Part shown: positions 7,201 to 10,200 of the stretch, piece after piece | Position numbering within the stretch: the stretch's first letter is position 1 | Layout of the letters: every line of letters starts with the position of its first letter | From: Escherichia coli | GTDB taxonomy: Bacteria; Pseudomonadota; Gammaproteobacteria; Enterobacterales; Enterobacteriaceae | Assembly (NCBI RefSeq): GCF_045037415.1 | Contig: NZ_CP173438.1 | Direction: 5' to 3' (one strand) | DNA length: 64,000 nt | Program-made: the position numbers

Positions 7201-10200
7201 AACTGACATTGCTGCAAACCTGGAGTGAAGACGACTTCCGTCGGGTGCAGGAAAATCTGATTGGTCATCTGGTGACTCAGAAAAGGCTAAAACTGCCGCC
7301 CACGCTATTTATCGCGACGCTGGAAGAAGAGTTAGAGGTCATCTCGGTGTGTAATCTCTCCGGTGAAGTGTGCAAAGAGACGCTGGGAACACGTAAACGG
7401 ACGCATTTAGCCTCAAATCTTGCGGAATTCCTTAATCAACTTAAGCCTCTTCTGTAATCCAAATACCCCATCTGATTGTGAGAGATCTCTTACAGACTCT
7501 GTAGGAGATCGCCAGGAAATAAGCGAATACTTAAAAAGATAAGAATCGTTATTCTCATTTAAAAACAACATGTTGCTTGTTAATTCTTAACTTTCATATG
7601 AAATTTTCCTTAAGGCATTGTCTGTAAGCGCCTTGTAAGACTTCGAGAAAAAGACGATTCTATCTTCGTCGACAGGGAGTCAGACAACGAAGTGAACATC
7701 AGGATGATGACACTTCTGAAGGACACACCAGGATGGTGTTTCAGGGAAAGGCTTCTGGATGAAGCGAAGAGGATGACGCAGGACGCGTTAAAGGACACCT
7801 CCAGGATGGAGAATGAGAACCGGTCAGGATGATTCGGTGGGTCAGGAAGGCCAGGGACACTTCAGGATGAAGTATCACATCGGGGTGGTGTGAGCAGGAA
7901 GCAATAGTTCAGGATGAACGATTGGCCGCAAGGCCAGAGGAAAAGTTGTCAAGGATGAGCAGGGAGCAACAAAAGTAGCTGGAATGCTGCGAAACGAACC
8001 GGGAGCACTGTGAATACAGTGCTCCCTTTTTTTATTCCTGCTATCCTTCGCGGCAGTTTTTCTTATTGAGGTTGCTTTATGACCACTCATGACCGCGTTC
8101 GTCTCCAGTTGCAGGCGCTTGAAGCGTTACTGCGTGAACATCAGCACTGGCGAAACGATGAACCCCAGCCGCATCAATTTAATAGTACCCAACCGTTCTT
8201 TATGGACACCATGGAACCACTGGAGTGGTTGCAGTGGGTGCTGATCCCGCGAATGCACGATTTGTTAGATAACAACCAGCCGTTACCGGGCGCTTTTGCT
8301 GTTGCGCCCTATTATGAAATGGCGCTGGCGACTGATCATCCGCAACGCGCGCTTATTCTGGCTGAGCTGGAGAAACTGGATGCTCTTTTTGCGGATGATG
8401 CGAGCTAATGCTGGAAATACTCTATCAGGATGAATGGCTGGTTGCGGTAAATAAACCCTCCGGCTGGCTGGTTCACCGCAGCTGGCTGGATCGCGACGAG
8501 AAAGTAGTGGTCATGCAAACCGTGCGTGACCAGATAGGCCAGCATGTTTTTACTGCTCATCGTCTGGACCGACCAACTTCTGGTGTGTTGTTGATGGGAT
8601 TATCCAGCGAAGCCGGACGGCTGCTGGCACAACAGTTTGAACAGCACCAAATCCAGAAACGTTACCATGCGATTGTGCGTGGCTGGTTGATGGAAGAAGC
8701 GGTGCTGGATTATCCACTGGTGGAAGAACTGGACAAAATCGCTGATAAATTTGCCCGCGAAGATAAAGGCCCGCAGCCAGCAGTGACGCATTATCGCGGT
8801 CTGGCGACCGTAGAAATGCCGGTAGCGACTGGACGTTACCCGACCACGCGCTACGGCCTGGTGGAACTGGAGCCGAAAACTGGACGCAAGCACCAGCTTC
8901 GTCGCCATCTTGCCCATTTGCGGCACCCGATTATTGGCGACAGCAAACATGGTGATTTACGCCAGAATCGCAGCGGTGCTGAGCATTTTGGCCTTCAGCG
9001 GTTAATGCTGCATGCCAGTCAGTTGTCATTGACGCATCCTTTTACTGGCGAGCCGCTGGCTATTCACGCGGGCCTGGACGACACCTGGATGCAGGCGTTA
9101 TCACAATTTGGCTGGCGGGGTCTGCTTCCTGAAAATGAAAGGGTTGAGTTCAGTGCGCCATCGGGTCAGGATGGAGAGATAAGTTCCTAATCCAGGGAGA
9201 AAACGGTATGGCGGAAATTGGTATTTTTGTCGGCACTATGTACGGAAATTCGCTGTTAGTGGCCGAAGAAGCGGAAGCGATTCTGACCGCGCAGGGCCAC
9301 AAAGCAACGGTATTTGAAGATCCTGAATTAAGCGACTGGCTGCCCTATCAGGATAAGTATGTTCTGGTGGTTACGTCCACGACCGGGCAGGGCGACCTTC
9401 CTGATAGCATTGTGCCGCTCTTTCAGGGAATTAAAGATACCCTGGGCTTCCAGCCGAATCTGCGTTATGGCGTGATTGCGCTCGGCGACAGTAGTTATGT
9501 GAATTTCTGCAATGGCGGCAAACAGTTCGATGCCTTGTTGCAGGAACAGAGCGCTCAGCGGGTTGGCGAAATGCTGTTGATTGACGCCAGTGAGAACCCG
9601 GAACCGGAAACGGAATCAAATCCGTGGGTTGAACATTGGGGCACGATGTTGTCCTGATATGTTCAGCGAGCGGTAAATGCCGTTTTAGCGGTGCTGAATC
9701 GAATCTTTTCAGGCAAATGCCAGTAAAAACTGCTTCATAGCGCGGATTTTTACTGGCGTTTGCCTGGAGTCAAGCGATCCATTTCATACTCTTCTTTATT
9801 TCTTCGTTTTAACCCTTCCTTTCTTGTTCTTGTTTTCATTTCCGTGAAGTGGATTCCACCGTCCAGGGCTAATGCCAAAATCGGGCCTCATTGAACGCAT
9901 TAATGTTGTGTTGTTGCACGGTGAGCCGCTATGGCGCGCTTTTTATACTGCTATTGCCAGATATAAACACGCGCCGTATTCGGCGAACGACCTATAAAAA
10001 CGGCAAAAACACCCTACGTCACCTCTGATTTCCTGGCGATGTCGCAGTCCAGAGTGAGCGTGGCTAACGCGAATTTTCAGGAGTGCAACAATGAGTTCTT
10101 TAAGTCAGGCTGCGAGCAGTGTGGAAAAACGCACGAATGCTCGTTACTGGATAGTGGTGATGTTGTTTATCGTCACATCCTTCAACTACGGCGACCGCGC

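What the first reader, a model, noticed from the sequence alone, without database searches (positions are those of the whole stretch)
7477..8033. csrB with intact UvrY box and CsrA-binding repeats, adjacent to barA on the same segment
This is a textbook CsrB locus: the 18 bp UvrY palindrome TGTGAGAGATCTCTTACA, a roughly 375 nt RNA dense in CAGGATG / AGGATGA GGA motifs, and a strong terminator. It is worth recording because the sensor kinase gene barA, which drives UvrY, lies about 6 kb away in the same window, so the Csr input and output are physically linked here. Nothing novel.
Basis: partly seen in the sequence, partly recalled or inferred. Interest (0 to 1): 0.15.

Follow-up and report, generated by a model that had tools for sequence, protein, structure and literature searches.

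The report
Ordinary E. coli csrB gene
This is the normal, fully intact E. coli gene for CsrB, the decoy RNA that soaks up the regulator protein CsrA, with its known upstream control sites and the sensor-kinase gene barA 6.3 kb away; all of this is already described.

Summary
The finding is real and its interpretation is correct. Rfam's CsrB model matches window 7677-8036 (+) over its full length (382.9 bits, gathering score 71). The K-12 csrB gene (369 nt) aligns to 7668-8036 with 367/369 identity, so the 5' end is 7668, not 7658. The 18-bp UvrY box TGTGAGAGATCTCTTACA is exact at 7477-7494. It is centred at -183/-182, the published position of the footprinted site. The RNA holds 22 GGA triplets, against a window mean of 5 per 369 nt; 19 of them are predicted to be mostly unpaired. 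It ends in an 11-bp terminator hairpin (-21.3 kcal/mol) followed by T7. barA (918 aa, NCBIfam equivalog, 1620 bits) lies at 14377-17133 (-), 6.3 kb beyond csrB. The window is E. coli, nearly identical to strain SK1144. csrB is present in 5425 of 5426 complete E. coli genomes. The order syd-csrB-yqcC-truC-yqcA-(gud)-barA is inherited within Enterobacteriaceae and Erwiniaceae. The one mildly non-textbook detail is a polymorphic patch over the conserved IHF site at 7563-7575: the window carries the B2/ST131-type allele with one consensus mismatch, whereas K-12 has two perfect overlapping sites. Nothing here is new.

The parts
6912..7457 (+). syd (SecY-interacting protein), the conserved upstream neighbour of csrB. 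Its stop codon lies 19 nt before the UvrY box.
   Evidence: NCBIfam NF003439 at 285 bits. Annotated as syd in SK1144 and K-12. syd synteny with csrB was reported in PMC1488887.
7477..7494 (.). The 18-bp UvrY (GacA-type) inverted repeat TGTGAGAGATCTCTTACA, the upstream activating site, centred at -183/-182.
   Evidence: Exact match, 0.01 expected by chance. Identical in sequence and position to the DNase I / ChIP-exo site of PMC4682653. Invariant in 10 diverse E. coli strains. The pattern was found at 120 or more loci in Gammaproteobacteria.
7500..7508 (+). Extra UvrY half-site-like sequence TGTAGGAGA, 5 bp downstream of the inverted repeat.
   Evidence: Read directly from the sequence. Described in PMC4682653. 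A TGTRRG half-site lies 3-6 nt after the repeat in 45 of 45 enterobacterial loci.
7563..7578 (.). IHF-like site(s) at -105 to -90. The forward site is AAACAACATGTTG (7563-7575) and the reverse site is AAGCAACATGTTG (7566-7578). Each matches WATCAANNNNTTR at 12 of 13 positions. The sites lie inside a polymorphic patch at 7554-7587.
   Evidence: A match with at most 1 mismatch sits at a fixed offset of +82 to +86 from the repeat in 40 of 45 enterobacterial loci, against 0 of 630 control windows. K-12 has two perfect overlapping sites there. IHF is required for csrB expression in K-12 (PMC4682653). That the site functions in this allele is inferred.
7623..7639 (+). Two direct TGTAAG half-sites (7623-7628 and 7634-7639). 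The second overlaps the -35 hexamer. Both lie inside the published promoter-proximal UvrY cross-linking zone (-56 to +25).
   Evidence: Sequence; zone coordinates from PMC4682653. CTTGTAAGAC recurs at this position in most of the enterobacterial promoter sequences printed (read by eye, not counted). A functional role is inferred only.
7633..7661 (+). Weak sigma-70-type core promoter: -35 TTGTAA (7633-7638), 17-bp spacer, -10 GATTCT (7656-7661). Position +1 is the G at 7668.
   Evidence: The TTGYNN-17-GATYYT arrangement is found in 30 of 45 enterobacterial loci, always with a 17-bp spacer. It falls below the threshold of the consensus scanner, which fits dependence on an activator. The hexamer assignment is inferred.
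7668..8036 (+). The csrB gene: a 369-nt CsrA-sequestering small RNA.
   Evidence: Aligns to K-12 b4408 with 367/369 identity. Rfam RF00018 matches 7677-8036 at 382.9 bits. It has 22 GGA, 10 of them in hairpin loops of the MFE fold and 19 with mean P(unpaired) of at least 0.65. The fold has z = -4.3. The RNA is present in 5425 of 5426 E. coli genomes and is at least 99% identical in 5176.
8001..8033 (+). Intrinsic terminator: 11-bp stem, GAAU loop, then T7.
   Evidence: -21.3 kcal/mol, z = -7.8. The window has an A-U pair at 8007 where K-12 has a G-U pair.
8079..8408 (+). yqcC, the conserved downstream neighbour and first gene of yqcC-truC-yqcA. Its start codon lies 42 nt after the csrB terminator.
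   Evidence: ORF list and annotation of SK1144 and K-12.
14377..17133 (-). barA, the tripartite sensor kinase that phosphorylates UvrY. It is convergent with csrB and 6.3 kb beyond it, separated by yqcC-truC-yqcA and gudPXD.
   Evidence: NCBIfam NF008318 equivalog, 1620 bits, residues 1-917 of 918. Annotated barA at the collinear position in SK1144.

Best explanation
Window 7668-8036 (+) is the chromosomal csrB gene of an E. coli strain nearly identical to SK1144. The strain carries the csrB promoter allele shared with ST131 and Nissle 1917 genomes (B2 phylogroup by general knowledge). The established mechanism in E. coli K-12, inferred here from near-identity, runs as follows. BarA (encoded at 14377-17133) phosphorylates UvrY, which is encoded outside the window. 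UvrY-P binds the 18-bp inverted repeat at 7477-7494, 183 bp upstream of the start site. IHF bound at about -100 (7563-7575) bends the DNA so that UvrY-P can act on RNA polymerase at a weak sigma-70 promoter (TTGTAA-17-GATTCT). The 369-nt transcript displays about 18-22 GGA motifs, mostly in small hairpin loops or single-stranded linkers. Each motif is a binding site for a CsrA dimer surface, so the RNA titrates CsrA away from its mRNA targets. An 11-bp intrinsic terminator ends the RNA. The unstructured stretch just before the terminator is the RNase E entry site used in CsrD-dependent turnover. Shown here: the identity of the RNA, the motifs, the predicted structure, the site positions and their conservation. 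Inferred from the literature: all binding and regulatory steps.
For: The Rfam CsrB hit is full length, 382.9 bits against a gathering score of 71. Identity to the annotated K-12 csrB is 367/369, with the same neighbours syd and yqcC. The UvrY repeat is exact and centred at -183/-182, as published. The TGTAGGAGA half-site lies 5 bp downstream, as published. An IHF-consensus site sits at a fixed offset in 40 of 45 enterobacterial loci against 0 of 630 control windows, and matches 12 of 13 positions in the window. All 14 enterobacterial loci scanned carry a CsrB hit 166-195 nt after the repeat. The RNA has 22 GGA, the number stated for E. coli CsrB in PMC7652899. Ten GGA lie in hairpin loops and 19 of 22 are mostly unpaired. 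The terminator folds at -21.3 kcal/mol. BarA matches its equivalog model at 1620 bits. csrB is a core gene, found in 5425 of 5426 genomes. The Kulkarni et al. criteria for CsrA-regulating sRNAs (PMC1488887) are all met.
Against: Nothing contradicts this reading. Four caveats apply. No expression or binding data exist for this strain. The IHF core differs from K-12 (AAACAA instead of AATCAA), and the second, reverse-strand perfect site of K-12 is also reduced to 12 of 13. The generic promoter scan finds no sigma-70 site at its threshold. RefSeq PGAP records do not annotate csrB, so public annotation of the closest genomes is silent.
Confidence: 0.97

Rival explanations
1. The barA-csrB proximity is functionally selected, for example for co-inheritance or co-localisation of the signalling input and its RNA output. 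On this view it is more than inherited gene order.
For: barA lies just beyond yqcA in all 5 enterobacterial loci whose stored flank reached far enough: E. albertii, Enterobacter sp. Ag1, Cedecea neteri, Pantoea stewartii and Enterobacter asburiae. In E. albertii there is no gud operon and barA ends only 1.7 kb from csrB.
Against: No BarA homologue was found within 5-8 kb beyond yqcA in Hafnia, two Rahnella species or Dickeya oryzae, although csrB and its UvrY box are there. BarA acts on UvrY, a diffusible protein encoded elsewhere, so no cis mechanism is evident. The intervening content varies (gudPXD present or absent). Conservation at family level is what plain vertical inheritance predicts.
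Confidence: 0.07
2. The B2/ST131-type promoter allele in the window, with one mismatch in each IHF core, alters IHF-dependent activation. csrB would then be expressed or regulated differently from K-12.
For: Eight of the 19 variable promoter columns among 10 strains fall in 7554-7587, over the IHF site. K-12 has two perfect overlapping IHF consensus sites, whereas the window has 12 of 13 in each. The window-type 35-mer is exact in 919 genomes and the K-12 type in 2887 of 5426. Loss of IHF lowers CsrB about 10-fold in K-12 (PMC4682653).
Against: IHF tolerates single mismatches. Thirty-three of the 40 enterobacterial loci with a site at this offset also have one mismatch, and several species carry the same AAACAA or AAACAT core. 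The UvrY box, half-site, -35 and -10 elements are identical to K-12.
Confidence: 0.2
3. The region is a different member of the Csr/Rsm RNA clan (CsrC, RsmX/Y/Z) or a decayed, non-functional csrB copy.
For: None beyond the shared GGA-rich architecture of the clan.
Against: With clan competition, Rfam keeps CsrB as the best model, matched end to end. Only 2 substitutions separate it from K-12, and at both the window carries the base of the Rfam consensus and the majority allele of the 10 E. coli sequences compared. The syd/yqcC context is that of csrB, whereas csrC lies between yihA and yihI (PMC1488887).
Confidence: 0.01

Closest known systems
E. coli K-12 csrB (b4408, NC_000913.3 2924156-2924524, minus strand)
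   Same: Same length (369 nt), 367/369 identical, and same neighbours (syd upstream, yqcC downstream). The UvrY inverted repeat, TGTAGGAGA half-site, -35 and -10 elements, GGA count (22) and terminator architecture are identical.
   Different: There are two substitutions in the RNA: 7719 is A where K-12 has C, and 8007 is A where K-12 has G, turning a G-U pair in the terminator stem into A-U. There are six substitutions in the 210-bp promoter region. Four of them (7554, 7565, 7569, 7576) fall in or next to the IHF site and remove K-12's two perfect IHF consensus matches.
CsrB/RsmB RNA family, Rfam RF00018 (clan CL00106)
   Same: Full-length match far above the gathering score, with repeated small hairpins presenting GGA in their loops and a terminal intrinsic terminator.
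   Different: Nothing of note. The Rfam model starts 9 nt inside the annotated transcript.
GacA/UvrY-box-driven Csr/Rsm sRNA genes of other Gammaproteobacteria (Salmonella csrB, Vibrio csrB1-3, Pectobacterium rsmB)
   Same: The same 18-bp palindromic upstream activating sequence. Within Enterobacterales the box also sits about 170-195 bp upstream of the RNA.
   Different: The IHF site at a fixed +82 to +86 offset and the syd-csrB-yqcC context were examined and documented here only for Enterobacterales. Vibrio and Photobacterium genomes carry several box-bearing loci per genome.

Membership tests
CsrB/RsmB RNA family (Rfam RF00018) | Covariance-model score at or above the curated gathering score, over the whole model | tested here: met
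   382.9 bits against 71, model positions 1-356 of 356, E = 2e-111, at 7677-8036 (+).
CsrA-regulating sRNA (criteria of Kulkarni et al. 2006, PMC1488887) | Located in an intergenic region | tested here: met
   It lies between syd (ends 7457) and yqcC (starts 8079). Only chance ORFs of 71 aa or fewer overlap the region.
CsrA-regulating sRNA (criteria of Kulkarni et al. 2006, PMC1488887) | High concentration of AGGA/ARGGA (GGA) CsrA-binding motifs | tested here: met
   22 GGA, 14 AGGA and 4 further AGGGA in 369 nt. The window mean is 5.0 GGA per 369 nt and the maximum elsewhere is 13. AGGATG occurs 8 times against 0.36 in shuffles.
CsrA-regulating sRNA (criteria of Kulkarni et al. 2006, PMC1488887) | Rho-independent terminator at the 3' end | tested here: met
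   An 11-bp stem at 8001-8026 followed by T7, -21.3 kcal/mol, z = -7.8.
CsrA-regulating sRNA (criteria of Kulkarni et al. 2006, PMC1488887) | Predicted structure places GGA in loops or unpaired stretches | tested here: met
   Ten GGA lie in hairpin loops of the MFE fold. Nineteen of 22 have a mean unpaired probability of at least 0.65. The Rfam consensus shows 11 GGA-loop hairpins.
CsrA-regulating sRNA (criteria of Kulkarni et al. 2006, PMC1488887) | Conserved 18-bp UvrY/GacA upstream site | tested here: met
   TGTGAGAGATCTCTTACA at 7477-7494, centred at -183/-182, identical to the footprinted site.
E. coli csrB orthologue | Sequence identity and synteny with the K-12 gene | tested here: met
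   367/369 identity. The order queF / syd - csrB - yqcC - truC - yqcA - gudPXD - barA matches K-12.
E. coli csrB orthologue | RNA binds and sequesters CsrA; transcription depends on BarA-UvrY and IHF | not testable with these tools
   Inferred from near-identity to the experimentally studied K-12 locus (PMC4682653 and PMC7652899).
IHF-dependent promoter architecture of csrB | IHF consensus WATCAANNNNTTR between the UvrY box and the core promoter | tested here: inconclusive
   The site is present at the conserved offset, but with 12 of 13 matches (AAACAACATGTTG, 7563-7575). K-12 matches 13 of 13 on both strands. Binding was not tested.
BarA sensor kinase (NCBIfam NF008318, equivalog) | Score above the curated cut-off over the full length | tested here: met
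   1620 bits against a cut-off of 890, residues 1-917 of 918.

The most novel reading that the evidence does not exclude
Among 5426 complete E. coli genomes, 919 carry the window's IHF-region allele exactly and 453 more differ from it by one base; these include ST131, Nissle 1917 and O157 genomes. This allele lacks both perfect IHF consensus sites of K-12. It may make csrB transcription less IHF-dependent or weaker, giving a lineage-specific set-point of free CsrA. A weaker alternative is that the conserved barA-csrB neighbourhood is itself under selection.
Probability: 0.12. Interest if true: 0.3.

Novelty: already known. Interest (0 to 1): 0.05.

Why it matters
As a discovery it does not matter. 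csrB, its UvrY box, its dependence on IHF and its position near barA are all documented for E. coli K-12. The check has three uses: it confirms the annotation, it corrects the 5' end, and it shows that RefSeq PGAP records of the closest genomes leave this gene unannotated. The cross-species comparison gives a clean sequence-level location for the IHF site, at a fixed +82 to +86 offset from the UvrY box. It also flags natural promoter alleles that could be used to probe IHF's role.

Tried and rejected
(1) The generic sigma-70 scan of 7300-8200 found no promoter. I did not take this as evidence against a promoter. The csrB promoter depends on an activator, and a TTGTAA-17-GATTCT pair is conserved across species.

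(2) I tried to read Martinez et al. 2014 (PMC3911252) for the mapped Salmonella IHF site, but the paper is not held. The IHF position was derived instead from cross-species conservation.

(3) The features listed under the match in RefSeq genomes show only syd and yqcC. This reflects PGAP not annotating csrB, not absence of the gene; the K-12 record does annotate it.

(4) I considered CsrC or another clan member, a decayed copy, or a coding region. All were rejected.

(5) I considered whether the window's two RNA substitutions relative to K-12 were unusual. They are not. Both match the Rfam consensus and the majority of the sampled E. coli strains.

(6) I looked for literature discussing barA-csrB linkage and found only the known syd synteny.

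Full report
**What is there**

The stretch 7200-8300 was read directly. The whole window was scanned against Rfam.
- The CsrB/RsmB model RF00018 matches 7677-8036 on the + strand from model position 1 to 356 of 356, at 382.9 bits (gathering score 71), E = 2e-111.
- The only other Rfam hit in the window is a sok antitoxin RNA at 49456-49612.

**Source and exact boundaries**

- A 701-bp query around the locus is 100% identical to many E. coli chromosomes, and 5425 of 5426 complete E. coli genomes hold a match.
- The whole window is collinear with strain SK1144 (NZ_AP018784.2). It differs from it by only 2 substitutions and 3 inserted bases over 64 kb.
- In K-12 MG1655 csrB is annotated as a 369-nt ncRNA, b4408, between yqcC and syd.
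- Aligned to the window, that gene corresponds to 7668-8036 with 367/369 identity.
The RNA is 369 nt, not about 375 nt.
- The two substitutions are 7719 (A here, C in K-12) and 8007 (A here, G in K-12). At both positions the window carries the base of the Rfam consensus and of the majority of 10 sampled E. coli strains.
- The RNA is a core, highly conserved gene, at least 99% identical in 5176 genomes.

**Upstream control region**

*UvrY sites*
- The 18-bp inverted repeat TGTGAGAGATCTCTTACA is exact at 7477-7494. It is unique in the window even with 3 mismatches allowed; 0.01 matches are expected by chance.
- With +1 at 7668 its centre falls at -183/-182. Zere et al. 2015 (PMC4682653) give this position for the site that UvrY-P footprints in vitro and cross-links to in vivo.
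- The additional TGTAGGAGA element they describe 5 bp downstream is at 7500-7508.
- Two direct TGTAAG half-sites (7623-7628, 7634-7639) lie in the published promoter-proximal cross-linking zone. The second overlaps the -35 hexamer. A role for them is only my inference.

*IHF site and core promoter*
- The same paper shows that IHF is needed for about 10-fold of csrB expression in K-12 and places a putative IHF site between the two UvrY cross-linking zones.
- To locate that site I scanned one genome per species for TGTRAGAGATCTCTYACA. The scan returned 120 or more loci in Enterobacterales, Vibrio, Photobacterium, Shewanella, Halomonas/Vreelandella, Alcanivorax and Kangiella.
- All 14 enterobacterial loci tested carry a full-length Rfam CsrB hit 166-195 nt after the repeat.
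- In 45 enterobacterial loci oriented by syd, a match to WATCAANNNNTTR with at most 1 mismatch lies at offset +82 to +86 from the repeat in 40 loci. None was found in 630 control windows elsewhere in the same promoters.
- In the window this site is AAACAACATGTTG at 7563-7575 (-105 to -93), matching 12 of 13 positions.
- A TTGYNN-17-GATYYT pair is found in 30 of 45 loci, always with a 17-bp spacer. In the window this gives -35 TTGTAA at 7633-7638 and -10 GATTCT at 7656-7661.
- That promoter is weak and escapes the generic scanner, as expected for an activator-dependent promoter.

**The RNA**

- The 369 nt contain 22 GGA, the figure quoted for E. coli CsrB in PMC7652899.
- They also contain 14 AGGA plus 4 AGGGA, 6 CAGGATG and 6 AGGATGA. 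The window mean is 5.0 GGA per 369 nt and the maximum anywhere else is 13.
- The MFE fold (-119.9 kcal/mol, z = -4.3) is a string of short hairpins.
- Ten GGA sit in hairpin loops, and 19 of 22 have a mean unpaired probability of at least 0.65.
- The 3' end is an 11-bp hairpin at 8001-8026 followed by T7 (-21.3 kcal/mol, z = -7.8).
- All five criteria that Kulkarni et al. 2006 list as defining CsrA-regulating sRNAs are met. They are an intergenic location, dense AGGA/ARGGA motifs, a terminator, GGA in loops, and the conserved upstream box.

**barA and the 'linkage'**

- The 918-aa ORF at 14377-17133 (-) matches the BarA equivalog model NF008318 at 1620 bits, cut-off 890. It is convergent with csrB, and its 3' end is 6,341 bp from the csrB 3' end.
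- The order is syd - csrB - yqcC - truC - yqcA - gudP - gudX - gudD - barA - rlmD - relA, as in K-12.
- The order queF/syd - csrB - yqcC - truC - yqcA is shared across Enterobacterales. syd synteny is already in the literature.
- barA follows yqcA in all five enterobacterial loci whose stored flank reached far enough. In E. albertii the gud operon is absent and barA ends only 1.7 kb from csrB.
- No BarA homologue was found within 5-8 kb in Hafnia, Rahnella or Dickeya.
- The proximity is therefore ordinary inherited gene order in Enterobacteriaceae and Erwiniaceae. UvrY, the protein that actually links BarA to the csrB promoter, is not encoded in the window (gene lists). No cis mechanism is apparent.

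**The one non-textbook detail**

- Relative to K-12, four of the six promoter substitutions (7554, 7565, 7569, 7576) cluster on the IHF site.
- K-12 reads AATCAAAATGTTGATT, a near-palindrome giving perfect IHF consensus matches on both strands. The window reads AAACAACATGTTGCTT, matching 12 of 13 on each strand.
- Among 10 diverse strains, the 210-bp promoter has 19 variable columns (9.0 per 100 nt) and the RNA has 7 (1.9 per 100 nt). Eight of the 19 fall in 7554-7587. The UvrY box and half-site are invariant.
- The window-type 35-mer is exact in 919 of 5426 genomes, including ST131 and Nissle 1917, and has one mismatch in 453 more, including O157:H7. The K-12 type is exact in 2887.
- One-mismatch sites, including the same AAACAA core, are the norm at this position in other species, so I regard a functional difference as unlikely but untested.

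**Mechanism: shown versus inferred**

Shown here:
- the identity of the RNA;
- its motif content and predicted presentation of the motifs;
- the terminator;
- the exact identity and spacing of the UvrY and IHF sites, and their conservation;
- the identity of barA.

Inferred from work on K-12 (PMC4682653, PMC7652899):
- BarA phosphorylates UvrY.
- UvrY-P binds the inverted repeat.
- IHF bends the DNA to bring UvrY-P to the weak promoter.
- CsrB sequesters CsrA dimers through its GGA sites.
- Turnover starts with RNase E cleavage just upstream of the terminator, under CsrD/EIIA-Glc control.

**Verdict**

The feature is already known, and interest is very low.

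Noticed in passing
window 49456-49747: A hok/sok-type toxin-antitoxin locus: Rfam sok RF01794 at 49456-49612 (104 bits), with a Hok/Gef family CDS in the near-identical SK1144 record. It lies between cysH and iap. No cas genes are annotated in that interval in SK1144; K-12 has its type I-E CRISPR-Cas locus there (from memory).
   Followed up: partly
window 7554-7587: A polymorphic patch over the csrB IHF site. At least four alleles occur among 10 E. coli strains. K-12 has two perfect overlapping IHF consensus sites; the window (ST131/Nissle-type allele) has 12 of 13 on each strand.
   Followed up: yes
window 7623-7639: Two direct TGTAAG (UvrY half-site) copies 11 bp apart, the second overlapping the -35 hexamer. 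CTTGTAAGAC recurs here in most of the enterobacterial promoters printed (read by eye, not counted), more than a -35 element alone would need. This may explain the promoter-proximal UvrY ChIP-exo signal.
   Followed up: partly
window 8037-8078: Only 42 nt separate the csrB terminator T-tract from the yqcC start codon, and no promoter-like site was found in 7300-8200. yqcC-truC-yqcA may therefore be transcribed from a promoter inside csrB or by read-through of its terminator. Likewise, the syd stop codon is only 19 nt from the UvrY box, with no terminator between.
   Followed up: no
window 18539-21660: relA (18539-20773) is followed after 95 nt by an intact mazG (20869-21660), with no mazE-mazF between them. 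K-12 has mazEF there (from memory). relA, barA and csrB all lie within 13 kb; ppGpp is known to stimulate csrB/C transcription (from memory).
   Followed up: no
window 21234-21235 and 60614: The window has 2 + 1 extra bases relative to SK1144 (NZ_AP018784.2), exactly within the genes that record marks as frameshifted (mazG and rpoS). Here mazG (263 aa) and the rpoS ORF (59904-60932) are intact, so the SK1144 frameshifts are probably assembly errors or very recent mutations.
   Followed up: partly
window about 26890-33370: A sucrose utilisation cluster lies between queE and ygcE. It encodes a LacI-family regulator, sucrose-6-phosphate hydrolase, sucrose PTS IIBC, a carbohydrate porin and a kinase. 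This is by the annotation of the collinear SK1144 record; the cluster is absent from K-12 at this position (from memory).
   Followed up: no
L012 (Escherichia albertii) 2516-7553: E. albertii lacks the gudPXD operon between yqcA and barA, so barA ends only about 1.7 kb from csrB. In E. coli the gud operon accounts for most of the 6.3-kb separation.
   Followed up: partly
E. coli genome searches: One of 5426 complete E. coli genomes gave no csrB match. One match lies on a record typed as a plasmid. At least one genome (NZ_CM170101.1, strain MARGA_3) has the RNA split into two places, possibly by an insertion. RefSeq PGAP records do not annotate csrB at all.
   Followed up: no
L052 14541-14558: An exact UvrY/GacA-box pattern also occurs on a contig labelled uncultured Porphyromonadaceae (Bacteroidota), outside the Gammaproteobacteria. 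It is probably chance or a binning contaminant.
   Followed up: no
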